Shown here: positions 28,445 through 64,000 of the stretch, piece after piece
Layout: every line of letters begins with the position of its first letter
Position numbering within the stretch: position 1 is the first letter of the stretch
Assembly: GCA_026387335.1 (NCBI GenBank)
Contig: JAPLLX010000004.1
Coordinates: forward strand, 77,955 to 141,954
Direction of reading: 5' to 3'
Source of the DNA: Candidatus Omnitrophota bacterium
Lineage (GTDB): Bacteria; Omnitrophota; Gorgyraeia; Gygaellales; Profunditerraquicolaceae
Length of the DNA: 64,000 nucleotides
Notes under the pieces: generated by a model
What the model was told of the DNA's origin: nothing
The model's database searches: none
Seen by the model: only the letters and a program-made list of their open reading frames with translations
Program-made: the position numbers and the translations under genes

Positions 28445-28510
28445 TTAGATTCTCCTCCTTGTCCACAGGGACACACCGGCGCAATACCAATTAGCGCCGG
28501 GTGTTACGGA

Positions 28511-29743: not shown

Positions 29744-29842
29744 AAATGCGCAATCCTTTTTCCGTGGCGATTATTCTTAGTTATTTATACTACCAATCAG
29801 ATTATAAGTCAAGTAATTTTAACGGGTAAGAAAGAAAGGCGG

Positions 29843-31444: not shown

Positions 31445-31445
31445 T

Positions 31446-32684: not shown

Positions 32685-32727
32685 TCTGTTGAAAAAATGG
32701 TCGCTGTCCCTATTTAATGCGTTATTT

Positions 32728-33885: not shown

Positions 33886-33959
33886 CTCCCTTTTTTAATT
33901 ATAAGTTATAAATTGTAAGTTGCGCGTTATTAAAATGTCTCCTTTCTCCTCCTGAATAA

Positions 33960-37075: not shown

Positions 37076-37080
37076 AGTTT

Positions 37081-39254: not shown

Positions 39255-39266
39255 TCCAGCCTTTCT

Positions 39267-39323
39267 TGATTTCGATATGCCTCAGGCGTTTATATCGAAA
39301 TCACACTTGCCTCTGGCAAGTGT
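39267..39323. promoter_or_regulatory. Two adjacent inverted repeats in the 5' region of the ABC transporter operon (candidate operators / 5'-UTR structure)
   Basis: GATTTCGATAT-N13-ATATCGAAATC (39267-39301) and ACACTTGCC-TCT-GGCAAGTGT (39303-39323), 13-70 nt upstream of the SBP start. Confidence 0.3.
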
Positions 39324-39409
39324 ATTGAATTTCTTCCTTACCTATTATAGGTGAGAACATAAAATTTAACATATTTTCAAAACAAAAGCAAGGTTTTTTA
39401 AGCTCTTTT

Positions 39410-40096
39410 TTAAACTCTTAAAATTCTGGACAAACCCATAAGATCTGCCCTTTCTAAGTCCATGCCGATACGATATCCGTCACCGTCACGGCCTGACCAG
39501 ACTGCCAGCCCCCTGGCGTAAAGCGGCTCTCCTTTATCCGGTACATGCAGCCAGGCCTCCAGCGGAGTATTCACTTTCAGCTCCTGCTTAAGCGCCAGGC
39601 CTAGGCCTTTAGCGCTTATGTCGCTGGTTTCAGCCTGCATCTCTACCCCACTATTAAGATCAAGGAGCGTTGCCGGAAGCCTTACGTTAAACCTCTGGAA
39701 TATCCTGCGGTCTTCCATATTCTCGCCTCCTTCTTTTTTCGCCAAACTACTCTCCCCGCCTTTTATAATCTCCATCGGGACGCTATCATAAACAAACTTG
39801 TAGATCTTCTCTTTATCCGGGCCAAGTAAATCCGTAAAATAAAGGCCGTAGGTATTATAGCCTTCTACCTGCTTGTGCCAGGCGACCCAGGCCTTAGCCC
39901 GGATAGAAACTCCTTCGGATAGGGTAAGGTCAAACTTTACGTAGGTATCCAAGGCAAGTTTTAAATTCAAAATAACTTGCATGCCTTTAAAATTAATATC
40001 CTTAATCTGACAGGCTACTTCAGAGAGAGCGCCATCCAGCTTAATCTTGGCCTTTTTATTTACCTGCCATCTTGATAATTTCCTGCGTTCCTGCAT
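39410..40096 (-). CDS. Tandem PilZ-domain protein (c-di-GMP receptor-like)
   Basis: Two halves each with RxxxR and D-I-[SN]-x-x-G motifs (ERRKLSR...KDINFKG; DRRIFQR...SDISAKG). Confidence 0.6.
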   Translation of the reverse strand: MQERRKLSRWQVNKKAKIKLDGALSEVACQIKDINFKGMQVILNLKLALDTYVKFDLTLSEGVSIRAKAWVAWHKQVEGYNTYGLYFTDLLGPDKEKIYKFVYDSVPMEIIKGGESSLAKKEGGENMEDRRIFQRFNVRLPATLLDLNSGVEMQAETSDISAKGLGLALKQELKVNTPLEAWLHVPDKGEPLYARGLAVWSGRDGDGYRIGMDLERADLMGLSRILRV

Positions 40097-40535: not shown

Positions 40536-43500
40536 TTATTTTATTTCATCCGTCATTTTTTTCCCAGGCGGCGCGTGTATTAACCTTAAAAGAAAAAGCC
40601 CTATTTCCCCCAACAGCTCTCTACCTAACTGCCAGCTTATCTTATTACTATTCATTGTAACCGGGCTAGAGATTGATACTCTCCTTATTTCAACATTTAA
40701 TCTTCGGGTATCTATTGCCTGTTCGGGCTGCGGCCCGGTTTTTACTTCCCCGCGCGTCGTCGCCATCGCTCCAAACAGACCCACCACCGGCGAGCTGGAA
40801 AGGATAAGGTAAATTTCCGAGCCTAATTCCTCTTGCAGCGATTGCGCGCCTAATCTAACATTCTCGCTTTCATCACTCTTCCACTGCTGGATATAATCAA
40901 TTATTAACTTCTTAATGGCTAAACTTTCTGTTTCTCGGAATAACCGGCTAATCTTTGGAGCATCATTCTGGTACTTAAGCATACCGTGCATCTTCCAACC
41001 AAGGTTCCCTGAAAAATTCCCCCATATTCTTTCGGGTTCTATTTCAACTAAATAATCCAAAGCCGTATTGGTTCCTCTCTCCCCTTGATGATCCAGGGCG
41101 ATTTTATCAAGTATCCTCAAAGCTTCTTTCATATTCAACTTTTTAATCATTTCAGCGATTCTTTCAATACTGTTGTATTTAATTAAAATACTACCGCTGT
41201 TTTCCCTGAAGAAGAGAATCGCCTCAACAGCTTCCCGATAAGGAAGTTCAGCTAAAAGGGCCATTGCTTCCATCTGGATGACATCTTCTTTAGCGCCCTG
41301 ATAATCTTTGAGCTTGCCAATAACTTCCTGAATATCCTTTCTATTATTAAATATACTGTGCATATTCCTTATCTCTTGCCAAATGTCGTTAAATTTTAAA
41401 AGTTCATCTAAAGTATGAGGTATTTTCCCTTTATAGTATTTACGCCTATTCTCTTCCCAGGGAAGAAAGGTATAGAAGTTTTTATACCCAGGAACACTAT
41501 CTCCAATGTTTAAAGTAGCCAGGATCTTATTCTGATGAAGCCACATGAATTCGGCAATACCGCATTCATCGCCTTTATAGAATTGTGTCTCGGGGGAATG
41601 TGCGGCCATGATAAAATCGGTATAGTATGTTACTGCCGGAGTACTTAAATATAGGTAAACATCTGGCTTAGCGCTTTGTAGAAGTTCTATAAAATCCTTA
41701 AGCATCACTCTTACATAACCAAAGAAATTGCCCCTGATTACCCACCAGGTCTTTCCTTCCTTACTCCTATAGAGCAAGATTTGGTATTTCTTTGTTGAAG
41801 CGGCTCTTAATTCCTCTAAGGTTGGCGGTTGGATAAGAAAAGGCTTTTGAATATCGCCGTAGTCCAACTTAAGGGCAGCTGGATTATCAAATTCTTTGAG
41901 TACTTCGGTAAGAGTACCCGGACCTTCCTTTCTTACCTTTGGAAGTATTATTTTTGGCTTCGCAGAAGACAGGAAAAATCTTTTTTGAAATTCTTCGCTA
42001 AAATTACGTTCGATTATCTGCCAATCAAGTTCTAACGCTCTGCCTCCCGAACTACCATCGTAATCGTAAGGCGACTTCTTGAGTTCGTGGGGGAAAAATA
42101 AAATTTTTATTCCATCGATATCTTCTGTTATGTAGCCCTGTAAGTTAAATAATTTGTTTTCTTTACTAACTGGCGAGCTGGACTGCGGCGCTAGGGGTAA
42201 GCCGGAATTAATTGTTGCGGGCACTCCGCTAACATCAACCTCGCTATCCTTAATAAGCACAAAATTCGTATCAGCTAAAAGGTCTTGAACGTGGATAACC
42301 CCTTCTTGACTGCGCGTATAAAGATATATACGTGAATTTTTAGGCTTCTTTGAAAATTCCAGTACAGGAGCGATAAGCCGGCCATTTTCTTTCAAATGAG
42401 GAAGAATATTTTTAATTCCTCCTTCTGTTATAGCCGCGCTAATTACAATCACATCGAATACCTCACGAAGATTCCTATTCAAATAGTCAAATACGTTTTC
42501 GGTGATTACCTTTACATTAGTAACGCGCTGCCGGACGAGGTTTTCTCCAGCCTCTTTTGCCACTTCTTTGATCAATTCAATACCTATTACCTCTCCCTCT
42601 CGCCCCACCTGGCGGCTTAAGATTGCCAGCGAATATCCGCATCCAGAGCCAACCTCAAGAACACGTTCGCCTAATTTAGGATTAACATTAATCAGCATCC
42701 AATAGATTAACGCAGGCTGTGATGTTGTAGAATCATTGCCAGAAAGATTAATTGCTTCATTGAGATGCGCAAGATGTCGCCGGGCCTGCGGTACAAAGTA
42801 GAATCTCTTTACGGCGCGGAAAGCTTTCCAAAGACGCGGACTATATTTAACCCATAAACCCAAAACCGACTTAACATTTATTAATAGCCTCTTCTGAGAC
42901 CGACTTGCTTGAATACGCTCGGACAACCTATTAAACCATTCTCTTACCGGCGAACTGGAGCGATCAAACGGTGAGGCGGCGGGTTTGGTTGCCGGCGAGC
43001 CGGAGCCGCTATCTTTCCCCTTTTTCTTCTTTTGGCTTGCCTCAAGACGCAGGTTGACGATACAGAGTTTCTCTTCTACTTCATCCAATATTAGCCTGAG
43101 TTCTTGGATTTTTGAATCATGGTTACTGACTTCTGCCGAGAGTAGCGCCCTGTCTTCCTGAAGAACCTGATATCTCATTTCGTATGTGGGAAGTAAACTT
43201 AAAAACTCATCACGCGCATAATTCTGATAATTACTCCTGAACATAGCGATGGCTTGTTTAAAACCTAAGATGATTTCGCTTAGTCTCTGGATTTTCAACT
43301 CAACTTTTTGGATACGTAAAGACAACTCCTTTTGTCTCCTTTCCCATGCCTGGCGGTCCTGACCAGATAACTCCTGCTGGACACGCTGTAATTCTTCCAA
43401 TTTTTCCCTACCGGTTATAAGTTGATATTCCAGCGCAGCTGCCTGCTCTTTAAGTCTAGAGATAGCTTTCTTGTTAAGGGGCTTTTGGTAAAATACTGTC

Positions 43501-58500: not shown

Positions 58501-61500
58501 CGATACCATCCGGCAAAAATTACTACATTCTTATTATCCGATTCAAGCCCAAGGTTGCGCCATTTAAATACGCTCCAGTCTCCGAAGGCATTATCAATGC
58601 CTTGCTCTCTTAATGCTTTTCTTATATCAAACCGTATTTTAAACATGTCGGATAACATCATCAAGGGCATCCCTGTATTTACTTTCTGCTGAATAATAAC
58701 CCCATTAATATAAAGCTTAGGCGCAAATCCCTGAATTTTAACCAATTGCCAGCTATCTATATTTACTGCCCGGGCTCCTACCATCTCTGTAATCAACTCC
58801 ATACCGACAGCCTTCTGAGGATACATCATTGAGCCGAGGCCGCTGGGTATTTTAAATACCACTCCGGGATACCTATCTGCTGTATACACTTTCATCAGGC
58901 AGCCTTCGTCTATAAACTCAACCCCTTCTTTTCTTTGTCCGGCTTCGGAAAGGGTGGCGGTCACCTCATTTAAGTTCGTTAAAAACATTCTTTGTTCATC
59001 TACCACCGCATCTACCGGCGAACTGGAGTAGATAAGCCGCAGGCCCTTGTTTTTAACTTTAATATTCTCTCTTATTTGCTCAATCCTGTCCGACCATTCC
59101 GGCTCTATTTCCAATGCTTTTCTTAGGTCTTCTTCCGCCAATTTCTCTTTCCCTAATGCCACAAAACAATCAGCCCGTTTAATATAAGCCCTGCTCTCTT
59201 CTGGATTAATTTCCAAGGCTTGATTAAGGTATTCCACGGAAGTCCTTACATAGGATTTAGGGAAACCGGGTTTATCTACGCCTTTTAATATGAAATCGGC
59301 TGCGTGGATAAACCGCAGCGCTGACCATTCCGTAAGGCTTAGCTCTTTAAATTTCTTGTGTAGGCTATACTCAATAAAATCGTCCTGCAACACCCAATAA
59401 TTATCCCTCTTGATAAACAGCTTATTTATATCAAACACATCGCTCGTAAACCCATAAATGAAGTCTGCCATTACTTTTCTTTTGTCGGATAACTCAAAGA
59501 GCGACGCAGTATGAAAAAACATTTTTTCGGCGTTACAACTTTCTCTGACTAGGATTAAAGAACTATTAAATCCGACGGCTTCTCCGATAATATAGAAAAT
59601 CTCCGCTAACGAAAAGGGAGTAGCTGCCTTAAAACGAATAGCGGACTGCAGATTAAAGTTATGTTCGGAGCGCTTGAACTTATCGTTCAGAGTTAAAAAT
59701 ATTTCATTTAAGACAACTCTTGCCTCAATATCAACCAACTTCTCTTGATCTATTCTCCCTTCTTGAAAATCCTGCCGGGCTTTTGTTAATGCCGCGTAAC
59801 TGCGTTTTAATAAGGGAATCCCTTTCTTATCCCGGAGAGTATCTATCCAACCCTTAAAATCCTCAAAAGCCTTATCGCTATAACCTAATAGCCTTATTAG
59901 TTCTTCAGCCTTCAGGTATGGCAACTGCAGGTCAAGCTTAATAACATTATTAATTTTTGACAGAGGGCTGGAAGCGGGCAAAAGGCAATTAAAGCCGTCG
60001 GCGGTTAACACCTTATAAACATACTCCGGCGTAATTTTAATATCTTCCAACAGACCGTAATCCGTAATATCCCAACAAGTATATTTAAGGTTTCTATCGG
60101 CTTTCTGTAAAGTATATAAAAACATTCTGTTTTTGCTAAAAACCACTTCCCTGCCCCTGGTCTCATCCACGAGATGGAACAGTAATTTTTTATCCAGATA
60201 AAGCTTTCTTTTTATCTCATTTCCATTCCTGTCCCGGCCTTCTATAATTTCCTCTATAGGCCAAGAACGATCCGGGACATTACCTTTCTCTATTATAATG
60301 GATTTCTCCTTATCTCCTCTTAGCATCCTGGCAATATCTTTCATCCTCCCCATCTCTATCTTTACCTCCCAGGCCAATGCATAGGCTAAAGTATAACTTC
60401 TTTCCACTTCGTATCCGCGGATCACATACCCGGATGGCCCGACTACCAGAATATAAGTCTTATCCCGGCTTTGGTCTATATACATAATATGGCAATAATT
60501 ATTGGCTTCACGATAAACCAGGCCTTCTTTTAAGGTCTTCCGGATAATCTCCCTCACTTCTGGCTCATTAGTGATTATGCCGTTTTTGGTTTGGGCCCCA
60601 AAATACGAAAGGCCGTTAGGCTGGAATTTGATTATATGTTCTTTGATATATTCCCAGCCAAAAGGATTTTTCCGCTCCTGGCTGTTGTAGCCTCTAAAGA
60701 GTACGCTAACATCTTTAGCCTTGATAATATCCTGCAAATTTCCGTTTTTAGGGAAATTTAAATCAAAACCTTTCCTACTTACGGCTTCTTCCAGGCTAAA
60801 CCAACCGCTCAGCCTTTTAGAAAATTCCGCTTCTTGAAAAGCCCGGATTACTTTAGCCCTTGCCTCCTGACCATCTGACTCTTCCCGCAAGATACTCAGT
60901 ATAGTCTTCTCTATCCCGGTGACCCTTTTCTCGTAATCATTCTCGTTTTCTTCCTTTCCCGCATAAAAGTAAAATTCCGCGGGTTCTGTTTCCTTTAATC
61001 CTCTGTTCTTTAGTGCCCTTTTAATCTCTTCTTTGCCTTCTTTAACCTGTTCAGCCTTTTGGATATTGCCTACATAAACTACCAAAAGCAGCTCTTGCGC
61101 ATCAAAAATTGAAAACACCAACTGACCGTTTAAGCAACTAAAGCTCTCCCTATATCCGGACTTCCTGGCTAGCTCCTCTAACCTAAGGCTGGTTTCTTCA
61201 GAATCTATATCCCAACCGTTGATTAGAGATTCTACTAATAAATCCTTGGCGCTATATGTAAAATCTATTACCCCTTTATCAAACAGATAAGAATATTGAG
61301 GATAGTATATATAAAGATCCGGTAATGATTCTTCGGCTATATCCGCCATTTTATTCTTAAGGATAAGGGTTAGTTCTACATAGAGCTTAAAATCTCTTTC
61401 ATCCCGCTCTCTAGTTTTATCTTTCTTATCCAATTTCTTACTTTCCCGTTCCTTTAATTCTAATAACCCGGCAAGACGGTTCCTCAAAGCATCTTTGTCT

Positions 61501-64000
61501 AAAATTAAACTTCTTAAGATAAGAAGAATTTCATCTCTAATGAAATACTTCTGCTTTCTCATCTCTATTAATCTATGCACAAATATACCCCAGGCATCTT
61601 CGCCTTTAAGTAAACCGATTACCTGCGTATCTAATTCGTTGTCATCGGGAAATTTAACTTTAAGCTCAAGCCAGAGGTCTACTGCTTTAGCTATACTCCC
61701 TGCCCCCAGTTTTATATAGGCCTTAACTAATGCCTTCTCTAATGACTTTTTATAAGACTTGGGAAATCTTATATCCGTAAAGATCTGGTTGGCCCTAAGA
61801 CCTTCAGCCTTGCTAACAAATGCTTCATATGAGCCTTTGAGTTCCGCTTCTTCCCAATAAGAAAACACCTCGTTATAATGAAACTCTGCCAGGATGGTTA
61901 TGTCAAGACGTTGCCTTTCTGCAATATTTTTGGCTTTTTCAAAATACTTTCTTGCCTGTTCAAAGTTCTTTTCTTTAACCGAAACTTGGCCTAACGAATT
62001 CAATGCCGAAATCGTTAAAGTCAGGCTTTTTAACTTTTCCGCGTACTCTTCTAACAATAATGCGAGTTCTTTGGTTTGGACTAACTTATCGTCTACGTAA
62101 TATGTACTAATTAAATGGAGTAAGTTGTGTATAGTTTTATTCAGCCCATCCGTATCCCTGTCTTCAAAAGCGTATTTATCAATCCGGCTGCGGATTTCTC
62201 CGGCCTCGTCTTTTACCGGCGAGCTGGTGGCAACACCAAAACCCCCAACTATTGCGCCTACCGAAGAGCTGGCCTTATTATCAACCCGGGCAAAAAACTC
62301 ATTAAATTCTCTCGCGTAAGTTGCGGCGGTAAATAATGCGTTGATAACACTCTTAAGCCGCACTGAGGTAGCCTGGTAAGTGCCGAATTTAAGCCGTTCG
62401 TATTTCCACATCTCAATAGCTCTAAATACTATTTCACGGTATGCTTCGGGAGACCGATTCTCAGGAATCAAGGTATTACCTTCTAAATTAATCGGAATCC
62501 CCTGGCTGTGTATGGTGCCTGCGCGGTATGGAGGCGCTAAAACTAATGCCCTGGGAGCCGGGACCTCAGTAAAACCGCTTGCCTCGCTATCCTCGTCAGA
62601 ATCTAAAACTATTATATCTAAAGCCGCTAACATCGCCTGCTTTACCTTAGAGTCAAAATTATCTATAAAAATAAAATTTCCCTGGCCGCTCTTCTTTTCT
62701 TTTAATAATTTTTTCTGGAGGCGGCGTAATCTTTTTGCTATATCTACGCTCCGGCCATCCGTATTCAGGATAGCGCCGCCAATTAATACATCTGCGCCTG
62801 CATTAATCCAGGCCCTAATATTATCTTCCCTCCAGGCCCTCTCCAGGTTAATTTTTTCAGGTGTCAGGCGGCCGACATAACCTATGGTCAACCTGTTAGG
62901 GTCTAAAGCAAAAATCTCCCTATATTCATGCATAATATCTTTTTCTGCATCTAAATACCTCACTGTCGCAGCCCTCGGGTCTTCCGGCCTGCAGCCTTCG
63001 TCTTCCCATCTTACATAAGCCCGTACCCTGGCCTCCTCTTCAATAAGCGCTTTTAAAAATTCCTCTTTCGCTTTTTCCCCGCTTTTCAATACCTGTATAG
63101 CTGTAGGCCGAATAGAATCAACCTCTCCTTCCTTAAAAGTATGTCCTCTGACTAACATATTTAAATAATCAAGGAATAATTTTTCTAACCATTTAAGATA
63201 AGTGCCGTTAGTTACGCCGATAATATCCAGTTCGCAATCAAATAACCTCATAACGTCAAGCGCGTGCTTATAAGATACTGCGCCTCGCCAATTCGCGGTG
63301 CGTAAACCACCGGTAGTGATATCTAAAAATTCTTTTCCGCTACAAGGATCTCGGCGCAAGAAAATCTTATCCAGAAGCCAATCATCGCTAATCCCGGTCA
63401 TCCACTTTACAGCCTGCCTATTCCCCCATGTATTTTCATAACAATGACGATTAAAATAAGTATGCGTTACCATAGCCTTTAAAGCCTGCTGCTTAAGGTT
63501 GACTATCGTAGGTAATAAATCCGGCATGGCAAATTTTAAAAGGCCGTTATTATTTTCATCGTCAGATATATCTATGAAAACATTAACTAATGCCGACTGA
63601 CCGTCATTGGCAAAAATTACCACATCTTTGCAATTTAGGCCATTCTGCTCTATAAACCAGGCTATAAAACGTAAGGTTGCGAGGCTGTAGAAACGACTGA
63701 AATCTCCCCAGCTTATCTCATTATCAGGAGCCTCATAATCATATACTACTTTGGTATAGTTATGGTTAAGTCCTTCGGGCATATGTTTTAGGAAAACTGC
63801 CTCAGCCCCTGCGGGGCTAACTCCTCTTTTAACTTCAACTTTCACCTTCTCCCCATTAAATTTACCATCAAAATCCATCATAAAATCTGCTTCGGCCAAA
63901 CGCCTAACATTATTGATTTCCGTAGAATTATTCTGGCCAAAGTGTAACTCGCGTAAAGCGCCGGATTTATCCCGGATGTATCCATAGTCAGCTTCAATAT
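40536..64000 (-). CDS. Giant multi-module protein (>7,800 aa, 5'-partial in window): chain of diverse enzyme-like domains separated by SSSPV linkers
   Basis: Single uninterrupted frame of 23.4 kb; frame still open from 63900 to the window edge with no start codon, so the TTG at 63899 is internal; multiple recognisable catalytic motifs (see the domain sub-features). Confidence 0.85.
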   Translation of the reverse strand, partial: IEADYGYIRDKSGALRELHFGQNNSTEINNVRRLAEADFMMDFDGKFNGEKVKVEVKRGVSPAGAEAVFLKHMPEGLNHNYTKVVYDYEAPDNEISWGDFSRFYSLATLRFIAWFIEQNGLNCKDVVIFANDGQSALVNVFIDISDDENNNGLLKFAMPDLLPTIVNLKQQALKAMVTHTYFNRHCYENTWGNRQAVKWMTGISDDWLLDKIFLRRDPCSGKEFLDITTGGLRTANWRGAVSYKHALDVMRLFDCELDIIGVTNGTYLKWLEKLFLDYLNMLVRGHTFKEGEVDSIRPTAIQVLKSGEKAKEEFLKALIEEEARVRAYVRWEDEGCRPEDPRAATVRYLDAEKDIMHEYREIFALDPNRLTIGYVGRLTPEKINLERAWREDNIRAWINAGADVLIGGAILNTDGRSVDIAKRLRRLQKKLLKEKKSGQGNFIFIDNFDSKVKQAMLAALDIIVLDSDEDSEASGFTEVPAPRALVLAPPYRAGTIHSQGIPINLEGNTLIPENRSPEAYREIVFRAIEMWKYERLKFGTYQATSVRLKSVINALFTAATYAREFNEFFARVDNKASSSVGAIVGGFGVATSSPVKDEAGEIRSRIDKYAFEDRDTDGLNKTIHNLLHLISTYYVDDKLVQTKELALLLEEYAEKLKSLTLTISALNSLGQVSVKEKNFEQARKYFEKAKNIAERQRLDITILAEFHYNEVFSYWEEAELKGSYEAFVSKAEGLRANQIFTDIRFPKSYKKSLEKALVKAYIKLGAGSIAKAVDLWLELKVKFPDDNELDTQVIGLLKGEDAWGIFVHRLIEMRKQKYFIRDEILLILRSLILDKDALRNRLAGLLELKERESKKLDKKDKTRERDERDFKLYVELTLILKNKMADIAEESLPDLYIYYPQYSYLFDKGVIDFTYSAKDLLVESLINGWDIDSEETSLRLEELARKSGYRESFSCLNGQLVFSIFDAQELLLVVYVGNIQKAEQVKEGKEEIKRALKNRGLKETEPAEFYFYAGKEENENDYEKRVTGIEKTILSILREESDGQEARAKVIRAFQEAEFSKRLSGWFSLEEAVSRKGFDLNFPKNGNLQDIIKAKDVSVLFRGYNSQERKNPFGWEYIKEHIIKFQPNGLSYFGAQTKNGIITNEPEVREIIRKTLKEGLVYREANNYCHIMYIDQSRDKTYILVVGPSGYVIRGYEVERSYTLAYALAWEVKIEMGRMKDIARMLRGDKEKSIIIEKGNVPDRSWPIEEIIEGRDRNGNEIKRKLYLDKKLLFHLVDETRGREVVFSKNRMFLYTLQKADRNLKYTCWDITDYGLLEDIKITPEYVYKVLTADGFNCLLPASSPLSKINNVIKLDLQLPYLKAEELIRLLGYSDKAFEDFKGWIDTLRDKKGIPLLKRSYAALTKARQDFQEGRIDQEKLVDIEARVVLNEIFLTLNDKFKRSEHNFNLQSAIRFKAATPFSLAEIFYIIGEAVGFNSSLILVRESCNAEKMFFHTASLFELSDKRKVMADFIYGFTSDVFDINKLFIKRDNYWVLQDDFIEYSLHKKFKELSLTEWSALRFIHAADFILKGVDKPGFPKSYVRTSVEYLNQALEINPEESRAYIKRADCFVALGKEKLAEEDLRKALEIEPEWSDRIEQIRENIKVKNKGLRLIYSSSPVDAVVDEQRMFLTNLNEVTATLSEAGQRKEGVEFIDEGCLMKVYTADRYPGVVFKIPSGLGSMMYPQKAVGMELITEMVGARAVNIDSWQLVKIQGFAPKLYINGVIIQQKVNTGMPLMMLSDMFKIRFDIRKALREQGIDNAFGDWSVFKWRNLGLESDNKNVVIFAGWYRPRLFKETLNSRPEEPIPPLSDKEIDGVLDRLIKYKDFKTDKGFKMEVKDYKEFNSYCWAANKADFQLAARYWKVIFEGKAHNEALSEVIGTMKYIYGSSSPVGATVCTSSSSITIVPADSDMVTKIEHKSEEEYSEIYRQLIQDFFEDIYTQIGYSGVSHFGRYYINALNSLNEDIVPLFKAHYFNYPAVYQLLLSQALKFNADYFTRSIEGQRLYFSDSYELFNQFPEIRRTHNGLGAESLTKTPSEIVYKSRLLHLKRYMPEKLNNKTPLLLIYSWIGGSHIFDLIRRSMIQYLLGRGFEVYLTDWQGVTQENKDLATFEDYIAEILNSYQKIKQLTGEDKIDVGGYCIGGTLSLVFTSLYPQLVRKLTIFTGAATVKVGKDAGGLIYALTQAALESGVVDDIFKQSGGIFPGLSLDTFFNLIQPLKNEEIVHAGIANLLNRYWQGQVSDNYLVLWSYLTARHVGSAHLRYLKDIIQRDLLAKGLFEVGGRRVDLSQITQPCLIVGALGDHIVSWPCVFETANLIGTPKDKILLALAKRGHLGGVIYNELFAIFADFLKEGPCISSSPVRSLVLSRPKISVELNLQCGISSGFWFANESMSFTCKGCPLAIFFVKDAGIYLGHIDLDDFKKGTLIEEWNKQTTYGIRSIFQDSEQILIAHQDQPTVFANRLRQSFNQRFFKGQERKIIIDPAPKDIEIKYMTAYVWPQLNETLVQYEQKLGDGKYKIVRENLYADYSSLLSSSPMDSRVKNALRSPAELARQRRQLDPSVFSPFIFVPDRLPFDPWGNEAGLPPLKANQIFYRTWPPPAAGWGWEKTSSPADIWQFTSSYIFHNYPLAKKIIEIGISQYTEAAGRLREVFPSDTRIIVTDIAPAALKEVKVRYPGIDTALDDIYQPDLVLYKDADVIYAIRPYPGLARYMLKVALFVGADLILAIPPGDEMDTLSWISLPDTTIFNRAGSLFVYKVRDFVNMHKGKIEGDSHEVVSASPIRSSSSVYVTTKMSALYLTIYLAGFVAKLNRNKNEIDFRNPREAPVFIEKLHSGEISIADINEYTFDQDEIKGLEIKQLVQHLKNTLDYLKTHSSSSVNVGAMETVAGRLKVLDSYLFGYLLSAMGLNNRKELVIIDVGCGKGAITTIELNNYARTALKDKKAKVIALDSNEEAFEDVCCSDVGKIDFIETDFRSVVYTRLRADVARCMNVIRWFNQDDFEDNVAALARSLSEGGILLVGNNDIETPEILAVLVYQKSNGSLLRRQSLFGFLGERLDQRFLETIKGFPHNDRIITEFRRAIPAARSDFQNGYALSLDDSLRRRGYTVINEEDYKLFVRDSSSPLTEEGVIKEFTLFRKKKEPIEVLLERIGVEMEHNQSFFNLNFQLGYNQDRHIGYLSFYAYSDTRTIEPHHWFVSVGFRQERYSYLFLYALFNIIPQTAELKDYTLHQTSSVYHPFMAKVLQKVGFTPDPEFRGTKCILGKTDEQGKVPVFLKGQNGRQAFESRMKNKGTASDFRIFQISDKPLDDPRAVVVIDAPYIVANLKLNKVLLHISSSSVEGYSTKEEVIQRRKAFETPYQIFGSTFFWNYSTHFKYLENILKSMIEERASKENKFLYLWSTGCGLGMEAGAIAVIVAKLFRDYMLNIGNWDIKIFATANNLALLEEARRGEYLVEEVVVGRNRGIEEGLPYGYELRDYFNSKGDIYRLKPEVRELVNFSYLDLEDNKSGLIIKDTDVIFCQWVFEYLEEEIRYHAAQALVSSLNEEGFIFVSGMEEPSFSGLVKEGILAAYHEDEIGEGYIYRKKNNTSSAVEKQRIFNPAHSSIPPVDRRAEAVNQYGEIKIASLVTVKLIGNKYVLTLIDKGASFDIWQIDAQRLMPDKGNNIIRGPPEFSFILMITPGQEELGLDPETKQPYTANVKINPPAIFIHPYFFELCDNWKEEILIELLEFMLANFSPWVPFEPSDEQAKGIEPTSSPIHKNISAAANDLELRKIMQERFDSAIGEYFRAIISDFDGTLFEGIFQAEMFAAMDRNLEIEKDFAIATGGSPEYIETVLRPQLKPWILNGEKLNRVHLYHSGGAVGYNMGTREIYYEIIFADELRKEIARFIKTGPALVCREPSWQAYFTKPKYSDALDFSYWSASLTDHKITLVPPKQNLIAYRQRHLEELFLKYQIAAHAKGTSIAIEILPLEVNKGLPLKDLSLRLGVPIDAIVKIGDRAGRRGNDFELLQGKLSFSVDEYDPDSSNQICVPLINGLKRIPATIWLMNELTCRSSSTVRRNGSIAVLDSGEGGRKGFDEIRRRLPHKYIYYWNMQQAPLGSKPAAEIQRLTCEAIRDIIEKYDPFKIVIACGTITAHFPEEARELLKKYRIEVFGFIDSAVKAALALELPQSKKIGVIATARTIQSGAFEDALIRGNSELSVFSKALPDAVVKTIERTMREGEHVAIQAWGKAEIKRLIKQPLEELKSLGIKVLILGCSHYSSIKDLIEEILGKDIKVIDASEELVNFLADKLNNGTSSSINSVNTEELYNRHEVLWSRIWKNRRLPQSEFLGRLLNEELIKKGQKVLDLGCGCRQDAVILAQMGCLVTATDISPVCLDYMSKEASKHNITDRLFARIQDFLKPFPFPDEEFDVVIANASLYFLNDSQMRHTVDEIRRVLKPGGKVFVIVYSKSDKRYGRGLRINEDLFVIHKEIIYRFFDYESLGKAFEGFTNIEIKNARVKSQNLDISKMLELRARKPGFVLSSSPVVNLINPSPAKRLQLDAIAYAQRAKDDTESGEGNFNGIWDDIHEASKIAEELEGIDIGLAYEIYDFLIKVGDSNASLAAYLAARRLIANYPYLARDLLLKLRSSKFPGLASFHKLDIHVLIGLCELSKVGSSPVVRSAIPKNWEEAKKLPLIEQEDAEPWLNIYKLWTVLKEISKITKECLGIPEAIKNVELFGSALYRAQDGRVNMKDIEDIDVNLIVDRKALSTDTGLISIGDIGDKYRELLFNHREKNVNFLYPFNEVWDICIESGRERKIIGICACEEGFWWGRSGLCAYIDKLICDLEKRYREGFWILQLINIPSRFTYPSNIEKLSKEDLIDLREFLNYLQDKIIEGEIVITEEMIKDRFSPPHLIIAPYGTSSPAETSNKYRFCLFNTGPEGKEGGVFGELLKVYPLILDSLKNGDTPKIRALSWGAVRKIGGLFTLAEPHRMVIAFLVCVKKEGIKLGQSNFEVIAFDSSREDLDKAFEGAYLEEHFQSLSENSFSAKEIEDFREEYFNKVADGTWKVKKEVNDFVKIQTDLGEEEIFYLILYNYLEYILEDKQEGHLPINTFIIASELYRRLRPGGYLLTTGKKRFRFFPELRLIHKAKATFLEKGIHSIDIFLYQYWPITDFEAWFKENYARLEQNLFKIMSGWDIMLPSFAYKFAKRIHRHGVREFLNYPYFMHPLGVTLDEVDKILESEKFKNNLIALGLPLNVYIAATLLHDVIEEYRDEGKSVPWLWIQLYIRLFINSGFSFRKTNQIYRILEIVTKRPGETEKEYLNRILAGRSSYHAAAQIIKVFDRIYNLTLPRFQWTAQRATDYAEDIRNIIEESRALNDELKDYLMGYFNKIYIELFVKELDKEAVRADSRLSKGLSSSPALVIQRDEGYWLNTGLLESILKMVRSGIKLVGSCRYLQDESGFVPLAAVDDIDFLLPMNYSESWRDLTSNIISKLKNHGVKEISRYAPFVKIHFVDPGAEATIHYIDLRSVGSSEYLDIAKRDLDKTFVYIQEPGLGDNLSWVKMYLSLEYYFGTDPEEHTIHLNEFYTYWSNKQLMAEARERIKSGSFNSLLEMISGLSYEEKLEKIRNKLYPLASSPVEMTKECAVFLDNFEIQQGNTILRLSDGCYHGCIHCIVNSSRKKIIHMPKDLANDIIQLLKKALPSGIMIRLDHNNDPSFYPYLKYVLEELREKGVELDHFLTKGWLPGDANTKRRIQEILQERLLKTAGISYNLLSPEVANVLLNSANPRAIENILKRYLAHYTDLIKTFAVVPLCVSKAEIFEDDKVNKIHERFKRLFRYQRELWEKIQENLSKEEFDAYDNYISAMGRGQQLFESSKFGYMTTRLIFGPGNVFYISVSNLNELPDDRLQHPNFYNKFHPWADWKEILRHLKPVVTPESTVFPSSQFMIKLGEIFRSSSPVGKEELLKALEDDFIEGYKENPDARRHYAGISHRWRKYLEDKGIEWLEIVSALIFDFRENYGDSWSYERCPLYSWLRLIKDIKELRIVSLLISDHRKRGDYTSSYEQTTLPSWLKRVKDLELLKGIANHTVKFRGAFLNSGYQERIIYPLLLKEINDIEALKKIFRVCQTTGHLIVSKPEIRLLQVFFEEIDPGARYSRLPLTISAKLDYKKESAFDDRIFALEYSGLISFDRTDTQEEESILIPPCSTPQEFVSFLKWLNKECFKPGISLRFQLTLNTLMAAGKLDLPDLTLTTILDPINLDEYVGKIEEAIAVGLKALSPQQISSPTSSPIDVSSDIKDKIKIAVLNELLSVRLFPKMKRIDAADIGRITKALTERFKVEFDLIDSFVREEHSKLSEMRPLRLTKAISLLYGDDYGLAISGIRKELAKRFILTRYYMATAPPEYILIADHSLMRFLISPYLFTLPEQKQIEILESVVESCLHSTASPLAQSSSPVKQVKKAISNVFAKLIPPLNSEEMEQIRDTVGDSLRQKKERLNTLSLLWMANVLSIKLWKQYTRVEEVVFEEHNRLFSGRKESASSSASRESPRQNLIDMGRRYLIDLSLDAMVVNNELKRGCSYFFDGKDFVKFDRKFRQFDDGQMMHEIYPNNLLIEDDAEEALYTTCISGCSLCVFVGIKNHKFLPLPLHIGPHDVYKGIAKALGIITAIKDYQLQGVFFGYNFNITSNTEAYLRLLLPLVGPDRIYDFGRLNDELDRLLWNRHGLIVSRDDRLKEPILWEEFIVSSSPVDRSSSPIYRQHRRREPKVVLDRTIELSNRTMKRIVIIINPRLGGSYRVELFDRTVFYQKPLNKKAISRLKEQAAALEYQLITGREKLEELQRVQQELSGQDRQAWERRQKELSLRIQKVELKIQRLSEIILGFKQAIAMFRSNYQNYARDEFLSLLPTYEMRYQVLQEDRALLSAEVSNHDSKIQELRLILDEVEEKLCIVNLRLEASQKKKKGKDSGSGSPATKPAASPFDRSSSPVREWFNRLSERIQASRSQKRLLINVKSVLGLWVKYSPRLWKAFRAVKRFYFVPQARRHLAHLNEAINLSGNDSTTSQPALIYWMLINVNPKLGERVLEVGSGCGYSLAILSRQVGREGEVIGIELIKEVAKEAGENLVRQRVTNVKVITENVFDYLNRNLREVFDVIVISAAITEGGIKNILPHLKENGRLIAPVLEFSKKPKNSRIYLYTRSQEGVIHVQDLLADTNFVLIKDSEVDVSGVPATINSGLPLAPQSSSPVSKENKLFNLQGYITEDIDGIKILFFPHELKKSPYDYDGSSGGRALELDWQIIERNFSEEFQKRFFLSSAKPKIILPKVRKEGPGTLTEVLKEFDNPAALKLDYGDIQKPFLIQPPTLEELRAASTKKYQILLYRSKEGKTWWVIRGNFFGYVRVMLKDFIELLQSAKPDVYLYLSTPAVTYYTDFIMAAHSPETQFYKGDECGIAEFMWLHQNKILATLNIGDSVPGYKNFYTFLPWEENRRKYYKGKIPHTLDELLKFNDIWQEIRNMHSIFNNRKDIQEVIGKLKDYQGAKEDVIQMEAMALLAELPYREAVEAILFFRENSGSILIKYNSIERIAEMIKKLNMKEALRILDKIALDHQGERGTNTALDYLVEIEPERIWGNFSGNLGWKMHGMLKYQNDAPKISRLFRETESLAIKKLIIDYIQQWKSDESENVRLGAQSLQEELGSEIYLILSSSPVVGLFGAMATTRGEVKTGPQPEQAIDTRRLNVEIRRVSISSPVTMNSNKISWQLGRELLGEIGLFLLRLIHAPPGKKMTDEIK
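42255..42810 (-). other. Giant ORF module: protein-L-isoaspartate O-methyltransferase (PIMT)-like
   Basis: FYFVPQ, TTSQP (compare PIMT TISQP), RVLEVGSGCGYSLAILS (compare VLEIGTGSGY; 42631-42665), DVIVISAA. Confidence 0.6.
43665..44220 (-). other. Giant ORF module: CheD-like (chemoreceptor glutamine deamidase-like)
   Basis: TCISGCSLCVFV (compare CheD LGSCVAV) and HKFLPLPLHIGPHD (compare H.MLP); 43996-44048. Confidence 0.3.
46050..46980 (-). other. Giant ORF module: radical SAM core
   Basis: LSDGCYHGCIHCIVNS: CxxxCxxC (46881-46920). Confidence 0.5.
47010..47640 (-). other. Giant ORF module: minimal nucleotidyltransferase 2
   Basis: LVGSCRYLQDESGFVPLAAVDDIDFLL: GS-x(n)-DxD. Confidence 0.45.
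47700..48285 (-). other. Giant ORF module: RelA/SpoT-type HD hydrolase domain
   Basis: YFMHPLGV (compare YITHPLAVA), AATLLHDVIEE (48100-48135), IIKVFDRIYNLTLP (compare LIKLADRLHNMRTL). Confidence 0.6.
49200..49800 (-). other. Giant ORF module: minimal (Pol-beta-type) nucleotidyltransferase 1
   Basis: LFGSALYRAQDGRVNMKDIEDIDVNLIV: GS-x(n)-DxD signature (49633-49710). Confidence 0.5.
50400..50940 (-). other. Giant ORF module: class I SAM methyltransferase (TehB/TPMT-like)
   Basis: WSRIW, VLDLGCGCRQD (50801-50840), FDVVIANASLYFL, VLKPGGKVFV. Confidence 0.55.
51000..51690 (-). other. Giant ORF module: glutamate racemase (MurI)/Asp-Glu racemase-like
   Basis: IAVLDSGEGG (compare IGVFDSGVGG), VIACGTITAH (compare IACNTAS), IGVIATARTI, VLILGCSHYS. 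Confidence 0.55.
51795..52530 (-). other. Giant ORF module: HAD-superfamily (IIB-like) phosphatase
   Basis: Motif I AIISDFDGTLFEG (52441-52530 region), ATGGS, motif IV VKIGDRAGRRGNDFELL. Confidence 0.55.
53220..53850 (-). other. Giant ORF module: CheR-like methyltransferase
   Basis: FFWNYSTHFKYL, LWSTGCGLGMEAGAIAVIV (compare CheR IWSAGCSTGEEPYSIAM), IFATANNLALLEEARRGEY. Confidence 0.5.
54720..55215 (-). other. Giant ORF module: class I SAM-dependent methyltransferase
   Basis: Motif I VIIDVGCGKGA (55094-55127), acidic beta2 end (ALDSNEE), motif III-like LSEGGILLVG. Confidence 0.6.
55590..55995 (-). other. Giant ORF module: Rossmann-like UPF0146-type domain
   Basis: IIEIGISQYTEAAGRL...IIVTDIAP...DDIYQPDLVLYKDADVIYAIRPYPGL. 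Confidence 0.35.
56805..57741 (-). other. Giant ORF module: PhaC-like alpha/beta-hydrolase with Cys lipase box
   Basis: VGGYCIGGTL (GxCxGG box, 57441-57464), PLLLIYSWIGGSHIFDL, GDHIVSW (PhaC-like DHIxxW His motif). Confidence 0.6.
59070..59220 (-). other. Giant ORF module: TPR repeats
   Basis: YLNQALEINPEESRAYIKRADCFVALGKEKLAEEDLRKALEIEPEWS. Confidence 0.5.
62460..63899 (-). other. Giant ORF module: GT-B fold glycosyltransferase-like (GT4/GT5-like)
   Basis: DVVIFANDGQSAL (compare DVVHAHDWQTAL), YVGRLTPEKINL (compare VGRLxxQKG), acidic E-x7-E-like region. Confidence 0.5.

What the first reader, a model, noticed from the sequence alone, without database searches (positions are those of the whole stretch)
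40661..62238. About 26 copies of a Ser-Ser-Ser-Pro-Val linker punctuate the giant protein, most encoded by the same GC-rich 13-mer
The peptide S-S-[SP]-P-[VILAM] recurs at roughly 150-750-aa intervals. By residue composition about 1-2 copies are expected in 7.8k aa. The plus-strand coordinates are 40661-40673, 40787-40799, 42168-42184, 42947-42960, 43641-43655, 43659-43673, 44275-44291, 44535-44551, 45029-45049, 46024-46041, 46989-47007, 47646-47665, 49141-49160, 50285-50298, 51696-51716, 52596-52616, 53041-53072, 53864-53881, 54497-54514, 55506-55541, 56256-56279, 56782-56813, 58194-58214, 59013-59035, 59960-59986 and 62214-62238. Most copies use the identical codons TCC-AGC-TCG-CCG-GTG, seen on the plus strand as CCGGCGAGCTGGA. 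This GC-rich block sits in a roughly 40% GC gene. A few copies use AT-rich synonymous codons (50285, 56034, 56782) or are degenerate (SSSTV, SSSSV, SASSSAS, HSSIPPV). Conservation at the nucleotide level, beyond the peptide level, suggests more than a flexible linker. One possibility is in-frame microhomology junctions that permit module gain or loss by recombination. Another is rare-codon ribosome pause sites for co-translational folding of each module. A third is that the peptide is a processing or modification site. Candidates are a protease cleavage signal for a polyprotein, Pro-directed Ser phosphorylation, or O-glycosylation by the N-terminal GT module. I did not notice the 13-mer elsewhere in the window.
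Basis: seen in the sequence. Interest (0 to 1): 0.85.

Follow-up and report, generated by a model that had tools for sequence, protein, structure and literature searches.

The report
Junction motif joining giant-protein enzyme modules
A five-residue Ser-Ser-Pro motif marks nearly every boundary between unrelated enzyme modules in a giant Omnitrophota gene, and a closely related strain has gained, lost or swapped whole modules exactly at these marks, so the motif looks like the seam along which these giant genes are built.

Summary
The motif is real. The giant ORF (window 40536-63899, minus strand, still open at the window end) has 23 copies of SSP[VILAM], against 0.4 expected. The "identical 13-mer" claim is overstated. 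Only 3 copies are exact, 12 of 24 are within one mismatch, and 15 share AGYTCGCC.

The gene is an Omnitrophota multi-enzyme giant protein, a published class whose junctions have not been described. The motif [S/A]-S-S-P-[V/I/L/A] lies between Pfam domains, in low-confidence AlphaFold linkers, and at the ends of homology blocks shared with other giants (52% of ends within 20 aa, against 10% by chance).

The peptide is conserved across the phylum, with varied codons in higher-GC relatives, so it is selected as a peptide. Four low-GC loci nevertheless share the same DNA consensus, TCCAGCTCGCCGG.

A close relative (L007, 76-99.8% nucleotide identity per module) differs from the window by whole-module deletions, an insertion and replacements. 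Seven of nine breakpoints fall on the motif, and the clean junctions retain a single motif copy. Module order is scrambled between other relatives.

Best reading: a selected linker peptide whose near-identical coding copies act as in-frame short-homology recombination sites. Its protein-level role is untested. Cleavage by a subtilase-like protease is the most attractive lead.

The parts
40536..64000 (-). Giant multi-enzyme ORF. Stop codon at 40536-40538. The frame is still open at window end 64000, so the gene is cut at its 5' end (at least 7,820 codons). It is a mosaic of unrelated modules: TPR, PhaC-like alpha/beta hydrolase, UPF0146, several SAM methyltransferases, CheR, HAD, Glu racemase, radical SAM and PCMT.
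   Evidence: There are no internal protein repeats and no TM-like segments.
62214..62228 (-). Junction motif TSSPV (aa 558-562), ACCAGCTCGCCGGTA, 1 mismatch to TCCAGCTCGCCGG
59961..59975 (-). Junction motif ASSPL (aa 1309-1313), non-canonical codons
59013..59027 (-). Junction motif SSSPV (aa 1625-1629), TCCAGTTCGCCGGTA; follows the TPR module
58194..58208 (-). Junction motif SSSPV (aa 1898-1902), TCCAGCTCACCGGTG
56787..56801 (-). Junction motif SSSPV (aa 2367-2371), AT-rich synonymous codons TCTTCTAGCCCTGTG; follows the alpha/beta-hydrolase module
56259..56273 (-). Junction motif SSSPM (aa 2543-2547)
56031..56045 (-). Junction motif TSSPA (aa 2619-2623), non-canonical codons; precedes the UPF0146 module
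55506..55520 (-). Degenerate motif SSSSV (aa 2794-2798), TCCAGCTCGTCGGTG (Pro to Ser by one C-to-T change), preceded by SASPIR. Left breakpoint of the block absent from L007.
54501..55538 (-). Block aa 2788-3133 (includes the Methyltransf_25 module), present here and absent from relative L007. In L007 the junction has decayed to FNLP.
54495..54509 (-). Junction motif SSSPL (aa 3131-3135). Right breakpoint of the block absent from L007.
53856..53870 (-). Degenerate motif ISSSS(V) (aa 3344-3348; L007 has ISSSPL here). Left boundary of the replaced CheR module.
52635..53852 (-). CheR methyltransferase module (aa 3350-3755). In L007 it is replaced by about 420 aa with no detectable similarity.
52596..52610 (-). 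Junction motif TSSPI (aa 3764-3768). Right boundary of the replaced module (L007 has AASPI).
51699..51713 (-). Degenerate motif (R)SSST(V) (aa 4063-4067). It lies 5 aa before the position where a stand-alone Glu racemase begins, inside a segment with pLDDT below 50.
50961..50984 (-). Degenerate motif GTSSSINS (aa 4306-4313), between the racemase and methyltransferase domains, inside a segment with pLDDT below 50.
50283..50297 (-). Junction motif SSSPV (aa 4535-4539), TCCAGTTCTCCAGTA. L007 carries an extra 386-aa module here, flanked by two motif copies.
49884..49898 (-).
49140..49154 (-). Junction motif TSSPA (aa 4916-4920). Start of the CheR-like + HD module shared with 24 database proteins; homology to P0001 begins here.
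47646..47660 (-). Junction motif SSSPA (aa 5414-5418), exact TCCAGCTCGCCGG. End of the shared module and left breakpoint of the two-module block absent from L007.
46038..47645 (-). Two modules (aa 5419-5954, includes radical SAM), present here and absent from L007. The L007 junction is the left flank, one motif copy, then the right flank.
46989..47003 (-). Junction motif ASSPV (aa 5633-5637), GCTAGCTCGCCGGTG; precedes the radical SAM module
46023..46037 (-). Junction motif SSSPV (aa 5955-5959), TCCAGCTCGCCAGTA. Right breakpoint of the two-module block.
45027..45053 (-). Doubled motif ISSPTSSPI (aa 6283-6291). Start of the 165-aa module shared with L004, L006 and L007.
44535..44549 (-). Junction motif SSSPV (aa 6451-6455), preceded by TASPLAQ. 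End of the 165-aa shared module.
44274..44291 (-). Degenerate motif SASSSA (aa 6537-6542), near the point (about aa 6519) where the window and L007 diverge into unrelated C-terminal module sets.
43638..43673 (-). Tandem pair SSSPVDRSSSPI (aa 6743-6754); one copy is the exact 13-mer
42945..42959 (-). Junction motif SSSPV (aa 6981-6985), preceded by AASPFDR; precedes the PCMT module
42168..42182 (-). Junction motif SSSPV (aa 7240-7244); follows the PCMT module
40785..40799 (-). Junction motif SSSPV (aa 7701-7705), exact 13-mer. Similarity to L007 resumes here (SSSPVV.LFGA..ATRGE).
40659..40673 (-). Last motif ISSPV (aa 7743-7747), non-canonical codons

Best explanation
The motif is the standard seam between modules in an Omnitrophota multi-enzyme giant protein. 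Each module is roughly one complete stand-alone enzyme. Modules are joined by an exposed pentapeptide [S/A/G/T/V]-S-S-P-[V/I/L/A] that is itself under selection as a peptide.

In the low-GC lineage that includes this window, the seam is encoded almost everywhere by the same 11-13 nt, TCC-AGC-TCG-CC(G)-G. These in-frame direct repeats are the places where whole modules are deleted, inserted, replaced and reordered. The most likely mechanism is short-homology recombination between motif copies: unequal exchange, or excision and re-insertion. That process would also keep the copies alike.

Shown: the motif is real and specific to the gene. It lies between domains. The peptide is conserved across the phylum with free codon choice in higher-GC relatives. 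Four low-GC loci share the DNA consensus. Module-level differences between strains break exactly at the motif. Module order is scrambled between relatives.

Inferred: recombination between the motif copies is the mechanism, rather than selection filtering random breakpoints. Recombination, rather than selection on the RNA or on translation, explains the uniform codons. What the peptide does in the protein remains unknown.
For: Motif enrichment and specificity to the gene.

Position between domains. The 12 Pfam domain stretches all lie between motif copies. A stand-alone racemase homolog starts 5 aa after a motif. In the AlphaFold2 model the motifs fall in segments with pLDDT below 50, between two folded domains.

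Relatives. Exhaustive HMMER found only 24 relatives of one module. Many are giants with 13-17 motif copies against about 0.5 expected. The loci come from Ca. Omnitrophota MAGs and are single open frames longer than 21 kb.

The shared module is flanked by the motif on both sides in different contexts. Across the giants, 26 of 50 homology-block ends lie within 20 aa of a motif, against 10% for random motif positions (p=2e-13).

Selection on the peptide. L005 and L003 (50-54% GC) keep SSP[VIL] with near-background codons. The logo from 189 sites shows no conservation outside the 5 residues.

DNA-level uniformity. The window, L007, L004 and L006 (39-41% GC) share the consensus TCCAGCTCGCCGG, with 44-67% of copies within one mismatch. 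The figure is 0% in L003 and L005. The baseline same-codon fraction at conserved residues with four or more synonymous codons, in a diverged module, is 29%.

Strain comparison, window against L007. Event A: aa 5419-5954 are absent from L007, and the junction is the left flank, one motif, then the right flank, with the BLASTN alignments overlapping by the 13-nt motif. Event B: L007 has an extra 386-aa module flanked by two motif copies where the window has one. Events C and D: a deletion and a non-homologous replacement, both bounded by motifs. Per-module nucleotide identity ranges from 76% to 99.8%.

Module order is scrambled: A-B-C-D-E in L004 against D-C-E-A-B in L006.
Against: Eleven to thirteen nucleotides is below the usual minimum for RecA-dependent recombination, so a RecA-independent or dedicated mechanism has to be assumed. 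No recombinase was found in the parts of the window I annotated.

Selection alone could place surviving breakpoints in linkers, although it would not be expected to restore exactly one intact motif each time.

The comparison rests on one closely related locus. One of the five differences (event E, near aa 6519) does not break on a clean motif.

Higher-GC relatives keep the motif without DNA uniformity, so recombination at identical DNA cannot be why the motif exists.

Uniform codons could instead reflect selection on translation or on the mRNA in low-GC lineages. TCG at S(+1) is also enriched in L003 (7 of 16).

Individual sites decay (SSSSV, SSSTV, FNLP), so no single site is indispensable.
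Confidence: 0.6

Rival explanations
1. Polyprotein cleavage site. The giant protein is cut after the aliphatic residue of [S/A]-S-S-P-[V/I/L/A] by a subtilase-type (S8) or other dedicated protease, releasing individual enzymes from one translation product. This is compatible with the recombination-seam reading and may be the reason the peptide is conserved.
For: The peptide is conserved across the phylum at nearly every module boundary, with free codon choice in higher-GC relatives. Each module is about one complete stand-alone enzyme. The motifs lie in exposed, low-confidence linkers. L006 carries a Peptidase_S8 module with candidate Asp, His and Ser catalytic residues read by eye from the sequence; it begins just after an SSPV motif. 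L006 also carries an M54 peptidase. West-Roberts et al. (bioRxiv 10.1101/2023.11.21.568195) report S8 and C39 peptidase domains in these giants. They state that the cleavage points are unknown. From my own knowledge: small-small-Pro-aliphatic/aromatic (AAPF, AAPL, AAPV) is the classic P4-P1 pattern of subtilisin and elastase substrates.
Against: No protease domain was detected in the window's giant gene or in the L004 and L007 stretches. There are no proteomic data. Individual sites decay without obvious consequence. The match to subtilase specificity is recalled from memory, not tested. This reading does not explain the DNA-level uniformity.
Confidence: 0.3
2. Post-translational modification or docking site. 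The Ser-Ser-Pro seam is phosphorylated, O-glycosylated or bound by a partner domain, to regulate the linkers or protect them from proteolysis.
For: The motif is Ser-rich, contains Pro and is conserved as a peptide in exposed linkers. Giants of this class carry kinase-like, phosphatase and glycosyltransferase modules: APH, DSPc, SpoIIE and GT5/GT1 in L002.
Against: No bacterial modification system is known to me with this sequon. The visible part of the protein has no TM-like segments, so periplasmic O-glycosylation systems would not reach it. There is no direct evidence.
Confidence: 0.12
3. Translation-level signal in low-GC lineages. The fixed codons (rare TCG followed by CCG) slow or pause ribosomes at each module boundary, to help co-translational folding of a protein of more than 7,800 aa.
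For: The codon choice is strongly position-specific beyond what the peptide requires, and is shared by four low-GC loci. TCG makes up only 8-12% of Ser codons in these genes.
Against: TCC, AGC and CCG are the preferred codons of the window's ordinary genes. Higher-GC relatives show no comparable codon pattern. There is no conservation or rare-codon clustering beyond the 15 nt. It does not explain the motif-to-motif indels.
Confidence: 0.1
4. A plain flexible linker with no specific recognition. Its similarity across copies would be convergence plus lineage codon preference, and the breakpoints at the motif would be only what selection lets through.
For: The flanks are polar and look disordered. 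Individual sites decay.
Against: Generic linkers do not converge on one pentapeptide enriched roughly 60- to 500-fold across a phylum. Third-position conservation exceeds both codon usage and the 29% saturation baseline. The junctions restore exactly one motif copy.
Confidence: 0.08
5. An RNA-level element: a processing site for cutting the >23-kb mRNA, a protein-binding site or a structured element.
For: A GC-rich 13-mer within an AT-rich gene; West-Roberts et al. raise the possibility that the transcript is cleaved.
Against: There is no conservation outside 15 nt. Motif-centred 80-nt windows fold only slightly better than random windows, as expected from their GC content. Rfam gives no hit. 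Higher-GC relatives lack a conserved RNA sequence.
Confidence: 0.05

Closest known systems
Archaeovorin-type / 'multi-enzyme metabolic cluster' giant proteins of Candidatus Omnitrophota (West-Roberts et al. 2023, bioRxiv 10.1101/2023.11.21.568195; 2026 preprint 10.64898/2026.06.07.730766)
   Same: Related loci come from the same phylum. Both are very long single ORFs tiled with many unrelated enzyme domains: methyltransferases, glycosyltransferase-like, radical SAM, HAD, HD and CheR. A carbohydrate-import gene cluster lies next door.
   Different: The visible part here is about 7.8k aa rather than more than 30k. No SecA-DEAD, HEAT or TM regions were seen in it. Neither paper uses the words linker, junction, shuffling or polyprotein, and neither reports a recurring boundary motif (its only use of 'motif' is in a cited title). 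One says explicitly that cleavage points are unknown.
Junction motifs of polymorphic toxins (VENN in CdiA, PxxxxDPxGL in Rhs). Comparison from my own knowledge.
   Same: A short conserved peptide motif marks the boundary of exchangeable protein modules. Its conserved coding sequence serves as the crossover point for module replacement. In Rhs it is also a cleavage site.
   Different: Those systems have one junction per protein, separating a constant region from a single variable toxin tip with a cognate immunity gene. Here there are more than 25 junctions per protein, between unrelated housekeeping-type enzymes, and there are no immunity genes.
Viral polyproteins with 3C/3CL-type cleavage sites. 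Comparison from my own knowledge.
   Same: One long ORF of unrelated functional units, separated by a short, loosely conserved recognition peptide at each boundary.
   Different: No embedded protease was found in this gene. Cleavage has not been shown. The host is a cellular bacterium.
Integron gene cassettes (attC x attI). Comparison from my own knowledge.
   Same: Functional units are bounded by a repeated site and can be gained, lost and reordered.
   Different: The units here are protein modules joined in frame inside one ORF. The site is 11-13 nt with no imperfect inverted repeats. No integrase was found among the neighbours I annotated.
Exon shuffling, and the conserved 'boundary sequences' proposed for mosaic lambdoid phage genomes. 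Comparison from my own knowledge.
   Same: Modular evolution by recombination at short conserved sequences between functional units, with the reading frame preserved.
   Different: There are no introns, and the junction is translated and selected as a peptide. The phage boundary sequences lie between genes, not inside one ORF.

Membership tests
Omnitrophota giant multi-enzyme proteins (Archaeovorin-type) | Encoded in Candidatus Omnitrophota genomes | tested here: met
   The window itself is unlabelled. Loci holding the shared module are Ca. Omnitrophota MAGs: JBDRLN010000018, OY759724, and one labelled Planctomycetales.
Omnitrophota giant multi-enzyme proteins (Archaeovorin-type) | One very long ORF tiled by many distinct enzyme domains (GT, methyltransferases, radical SAM, HAD, NUDIX and others) with no dominant repeat | tested here: met
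   At least 12 distinct domain types and no internal protein repeats. Relatives have the same architecture.
Omnitrophota giant multi-enzyme proteins (Archaeovorin-type) | Length above 30,000 aa, numerous TM regions and a divergent SecA-DEAD domain (as in West-Roberts et al.) | tested here: inconclusive
   Only 7,820 codons are visible and the gene runs off the window. The visible part has no TM-like segment and no SecA domain.
Protease-processed polyprotein | A conserved short recognition peptide at the boundaries of functional units | tested here: met
Protease-processed polyprotein | A cognate protease encoded in the polyprotein or beside it | tested here: not met
   There is no peptidase domain in the window's giant gene or among the annotated neighbours. 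An S8 module is present only in relative L006.
Protease-processed polyprotein | Cleavage products observed | not testable with these tools
   This needs proteomics or expression experiments.
Integron-like cassette system | attC-type site with imperfect inverted repeats, plus a tyrosine-recombinase integrase | tested here: not met
   Conservation is limited to about 15 nt, with no flanking symmetry. No integrase Pfam hit among the 20 neighbours scanned.
In-frame mobile mini-elements (REP/MITE, Rickettsia palindromic elements) | A palindromic element of tens to about 150 nt inserted into genes throughout the genome | tested here: not met
   The conserved core is only 13-15 nt. It is absent from the other 40 kb of the window apart from one 8-mer match.
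2A/StopGo ribosome-skipping peptide | C-terminal D(V/I)ExNPG|P consensus | tested here: not met
   The logo shows only [S/A]SSP[V/I/L/A], with no NPGP.
Known structured RNA family | Rfam covariance-model match, or conserved structure around the motif | tested here: not met
   No Rfam hit in the window. There is no excess folding energy beyond the GC effect.

The most novel reading that the evidence does not exclude
The SSP seam may be a dedicated dual-purpose 'module cassette' site. At the DNA level, any enzyme module flanked by two copies could be excised and re-inserted in frame at any other copy in any giant gene, which would amount to exon shuffling without introns, or an integron for protein domains. 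At the protein level, the same pentapeptide could be the cleavage site at which a subtilase-type protease cuts the giant polyprotein into individual enzymes. That would answer the open question of whether, and where, Omnitrophota giant proteins are cleaved.
Probability: 0.25. Interest if true: 0.92.

Novelty: new variant of a known kind. Interest (0 to 1): 0.76.

Why it matters
Giant multi-enzyme genes of Omnitrophota are a recent and puzzling discovery. The published work asks whether the products act as one chain or are cut up, and says the cleavage points are unknown.

A short, recognisable seam at nearly every module boundary has three practical uses:
- It gives a rule for cutting these proteins into units for structure prediction and annotation.
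- It gives a concrete candidate site to look for in proteomes, as cleavage or as modification.
- It offers an explanation of how such genes are assembled and why almost every one is unique in sequence: whole-enzyme modules are shuffled in frame at a shared 13-nt junction.

If the recombination reading holds, this is a bacterial counterpart of exon shuffling, operating inside a single ORF.

Tried and rejected
Approaches that led nowhere:
- Exact look-up of the giant protein failed because of the 5000-residue limit.
- Looking up a neighbouring gene returned only a 2-kb Logan contig.
- The word-indexed homolog search with the C-terminal 5000 aa found only P0001.
- A search with the two modules missing from L007 found nothing, so their origin is unknown.
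- The six-sequence alignment was too diverged for the genome scan. A four-sequence alignment worked.
- Single-sequence AlphaFold2 of the 165-aa shared module (aa 6283-6459) gave pLDDT 43. That is too low for a fold search, so none was run.
- The literature search for 'SSSPV' returned only unrelated eukaryotic hits. 'Omnitrophota' plus 'polyprotein' returned nothing.

Readings considered and rejected:
- Stop-codon or sense-codon reassignment creating a false giant ORF. Relatives encode the same peptide with many different codons.
- Val at the end of the motif as a fossil GTG start codon. The codons are GTG, GTA and GTT, plus Ile, Leu and Ala codons, and Met is rare.
- Programmed frameshifting to a stop codon. 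By inspection of the consensus, there is no consistent out-of-frame stop after the motif.
- A conserved RNA structure.
- Assembly artefact as the cause of the indels. A 13-nt repeat is shorter than typical assembler k-mers (my own knowledge), and the flanks are unique sequence.
- An S8 protease hidden in the window's giant gene.


Full report
OBSERVATION

The minus-strand ORF 40536-63899 is one open frame of 7,787 codons. The frame stays open for the remaining 99 nt up to the window edge. The gene is therefore cut at its 5' end, and the TTG 'start' is not real.

SSSP[VILAM] occurs 14 times, against 0.03 expected from 2000 residue shuffles. SSP[VILAM] occurs 23 times, against 0.40. The other 31 ORFs of the window (12,237 aa) contain three SSP, none with the canonical codons, and no SSSP.

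The statement that most copies use the identical 13-mer is too strong:
- CCGGCGAGCTGGA occurs exactly three times, all in the gene.
- 12 of 24 SSP copies are within one mismatch of TCCAGCTCGCCGG, and 15 within two.
- The core AGYTCGCC occurs 15 times in the gene, always in frame on the coding strand, and once elsewhere in the window.

The codon bias is position-specific and far from the gene's own usage. TCC is used at the first Ser in 13 of 14 copies. TCG is used at the Ser before Pro in 15 of 24, against a 12% background. CCG is used in 15 of 24, against 26%. An independent repeat search finds that the top repeat families inside the gene are all this motif.

WHAT THE GENE IS

Pfam shows a mosaic of unrelated enzymes: TPR, a PhaC-like alpha/beta hydrolase, UPF0146, several SAM methyltransferases, CheR, HAD, Asp/Glu racemase, radical SAM and PCMT. 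There are no internal protein repeats and no TM-like segments in the visible part.

An exhaustive HMMER search of 1.84 billion representative proteins, using one module (aa 4905-5425, CheR-like plus HD), found only 24 proteins. Many are giants of 3,000-8,000 aa.

A scan of species-representative genomes placed this module in two Candidatus Omnitrophota MAGs and one MAG labelled Planctomycetales. In each case the whole 21-kb locus is a single open frame.

The gene therefore belongs to the published class of Omnitrophota giant multi-enzyme proteins. These are the 'Archaeovorins' of West-Roberts et al. 2023 and the 'multi-enzyme metabolic clusters' of a 2026 preprint. Those papers do not use the words linker, junction, shuffling or polyprotein, and I found no mention of a recurring boundary motif. 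[quoted passage not shown]

THE MOTIF IS THE MODULE BOUNDARY

The 12 Pfam domain stretches (about 21% of the protein) all lie between motif copies.

Homology between the window's protein and P0001 starts 3 aa from one motif and ends 18 aa before the next. The same module is flanked by the motif on both sides in most homologs, although its neighbours differ.

Over all giants in hand, I took the best alignment for each shared module. Of 50 alignment ends, 26 lie within 20 aa of a motif, against 10% for randomly placed motifs (p=2e-13).

A stand-alone glutamate racemase aligns with its N-terminus 5 aa after a motif.

An AlphaFold2 model of aa 4040-4560 (9-sequence alignment, mean pLDDT 61) has two folded domains. 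The three motif or motif-like sites fall in segments with pLDDT below 50.

A logo from 189 distinct sites gives [S 40%, A 20%, V, G, T]-S-S-P-[V 49%, I 15%, L 12%, A 12%]. The flanks are polar and nothing else is conserved.

PEPTIDE OR DNA?

Both levels matter, in different ways.

In higher-GC relatives (L005 50% GC, L003 54% GC, L002) the peptide is equally enriched, but the Ser, Pro and Val codons are close to background usage. That is the signature of selection on the amino acids.

In four low-GC loci the motif has the same DNA consensus, TCCAGCTCGCCGG. These are the window, L007, L004 and L006, at 39-41% GC. Their shared modules are only 35-67% identical in protein. Between 44% and 67% of copies lie within one mismatch of the consensus, against none in L003 or L005. 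In a diverged module shared by the window and L004, conserved residues with four or more synonymous codons use the same codon only 29% of the time. Shared descent therefore cannot explain the uniformity.

Conservation stops at about 15 nt. Motif-centred 80-nt windows fold only slightly better than random windows, as their GC content predicts. Rfam finds nothing.

THE DECISIVE COMPARISON

A metagenome scan with the 165-aa module aa 6288-6452 returned L007 (Ga0247842_10000011). It has the same downstream genes at 96-97% identity and a giant ORF whose shared modules are 76-99.8% identical at the nucleotide level. The two giants differ by whole modules:

- Event A. Window aa 5419-5954 (two modules, including radical SAM) are absent from L007. 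The L007 junction reads ...ADSRLSEGL-SSSPV-KKEELLKALED. That is the window's left flank, one motif, then the window's right flank. The two BLASTN alignments overlap by exactly the 13-nt motif.
- Event B. L007 has an extra 386-aa module flanked by two motif copies, at the place where the window has one (aa 4535).
- Event C. Window aa 2788-3133 are absent from L007. Both window breakpoints are motifs, and the L007 junction has decayed to FNLP (TTCAACTTGCCG).
- Event D. The window's CheR module is replaced in L007 by about 420 aa with no detectable similarity. Both boundaries lie on motifs.
- Event E. The C-terminal 1,268 aa of the window and 2,650 aa of L007 are unrelated. Divergence begins near a degenerate motif, and similarity resumes right at the last SSSPV.

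Seven of the nine breakpoints lie within 3 aa of a motif or a degenerate copy of it. A 13-nt repeat is too short to cause assembly collapse.

Between L004 and L006, five shared modules occur in scrambled order: A-B-C-D-E against D-C-E-A-B. The process therefore includes reordering, not only loss.

Five junctions in the window carry doubled motifs, such as AASPFDRSSSPV and SSSPVDRSSSPI. These could be scars from joining two motif-bearing ends, but that is a guess.

MECHANISM

Shown: the motif is the seam between modules. It is selected as a peptide. Module-level variation breaks on it.

Inferred: in the low-GC lineage the 11-13 nt direct repeats are themselves the recombination substrate, and repeated recombination keeps them alike. 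Each event creates a hybrid copy, and modules bounded by canonical copies are the ones that move. The repeats are below the usual RecA threshold, so a RecA-independent short-homology route or an unknown dedicated enzyme has to be assumed.

The alternative is that random breaks are filtered by selection. That fits less well, because the clean junctions (A, B and the left side of D) restore exactly one motif copy.

What the peptide does is open. The most attractive lead is proteolytic processing. Small-small-Pro-aliphatic is the classic P4-P1 pattern of subtilisin and elastase substrates (from my own knowledge). S8 peptidase domains are reported in this protein class. L006 has an S8 module with candidate catalytic Asp, His and Ser residues, read by eye from the sequence, starting just after an SSPV motif. 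However, no protease was found in the window's gene or in L004 or L007, and nothing here tests cleavage. Modification or docking, a translation pause and an RNA-level role are weaker rivals.

VERDICT

The pause-site idea is not supported as a general explanation. The processing or modification idea remains open.

The gene class is known. The junction motif and the module shuffling at it appear to be undescribed. The motif bears directly on the open question of how these giant proteins are built and whether they are cut.

Noticed in passing
window 63900-64000 (-): The giant ORF's frame has no stop codon up to the window edge. The gene continues upstream, and the listed TTG start at 63899 is an artefact of the window. 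The GT-like region is therefore not necessarily N-terminal.
   Followed up: yes
window 32738-33753 (ORF 32728-33885, -): A 552-nt internal tandem duplication (repeat families D1, D4, D8, D10; 70-98% identity) inside a 385-aa ORF with no Pfam match. The ORF lies in the sugar-uptake/GH2 cluster downstream of the giant gene.
   Followed up: no
window 40536-63899 compared with 1-40000: The giant gene has lower GC (0.38-0.44 per 2-kb window) than its neighbours (0.42-0.48). It prefers CCT/GTT codons where the neighbours prefer CCG. The motif uses the neighbours' preferred TCC, AGC and CCG. The modules may have a different origin or be under different selection from the rest of the chromosome.
   Followed up: partly
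window 44544-45038 (aa 6288-6452); L004 aa 5095-5262; L006 aa 630-815; L007 aa 3337-3504: A 165-aa all-helical module with no Pfam match is present in all four low-GC giants. It is 99.8% identical in nucleotides to L007. Against L004 and L006 it is 63-67% identical in protein, yet 55-75% of conserved degenerate codons are identical. That is far above the 29% seen in another shared module, which suggests recent exchange or unusual constraint. AlphaFold2 gave only pLDDT 43.
   Followed up: partly
window 42945-42980, 43638-43673, 44535-44570, 45027-45053, 55506-55541: Doubled motifs occur at five junctions (AASPFDRSSSPV, SSSPVDRSSSPI, TASPLAQSSSPV, ISSPTSSPI, SASPIRSSSSV). L006 and L007 show the same habit (SSPAASPV). 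These may be scars of joining two motif-bearing ends.
   Followed up: partly
L002 1-31010 (ENA ERZ25039459 contig_38025): Eight consecutive genes are called, including ones of 7546, 3669, 2020 and 1904 aa. They abut or overlap by a few bases, and most carry the motif. This looks like one much larger ORF split by frameshift errors in a long-read assembly.
   Followed up: no
P0001 / L002 16600-16950 and C-terminus: Tandem 20-aa repeats each contain the motif (SASSPIISWENIKEAGTSAR, six copies). There are also repeats of SSSPSRTESLR and QPFQDGVAWLL, so the motif can itself be amplified as part of a short repeat.
   Followed up: no
L006 aa 1999-2300 and aa 18-98: A giant ORF in a relative carries a Peptidase_S8 (subtilase) module with candidate Asp, His and Ser catalytic residues, and a Peptidase_M54 module. 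These are candidate processing enzymes for the motif.
   Followed up: partly
window 26247-40096 (-): Directly downstream of the giant gene lie a PilZ protein, a sugar ABC transporter (solute-binding protein plus two permeases), a GH2-like protein, three ORFs with no Pfam match, a ROK protein, a crescentin-like coiled-coil protein and a LacI regulator. This matches the published observation that giant genes sit next to carbohydrate-import systems.
   Followed up: partly
P0007, P0013, P0017: Three other giants (2,689-5,926 aa) share the CheR-like/HD module but have essentially no SSP motif. The seam is therefore a feature of some lineages of these mosaics, not all. Their taxonomy was not determined.
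   Followed up: no
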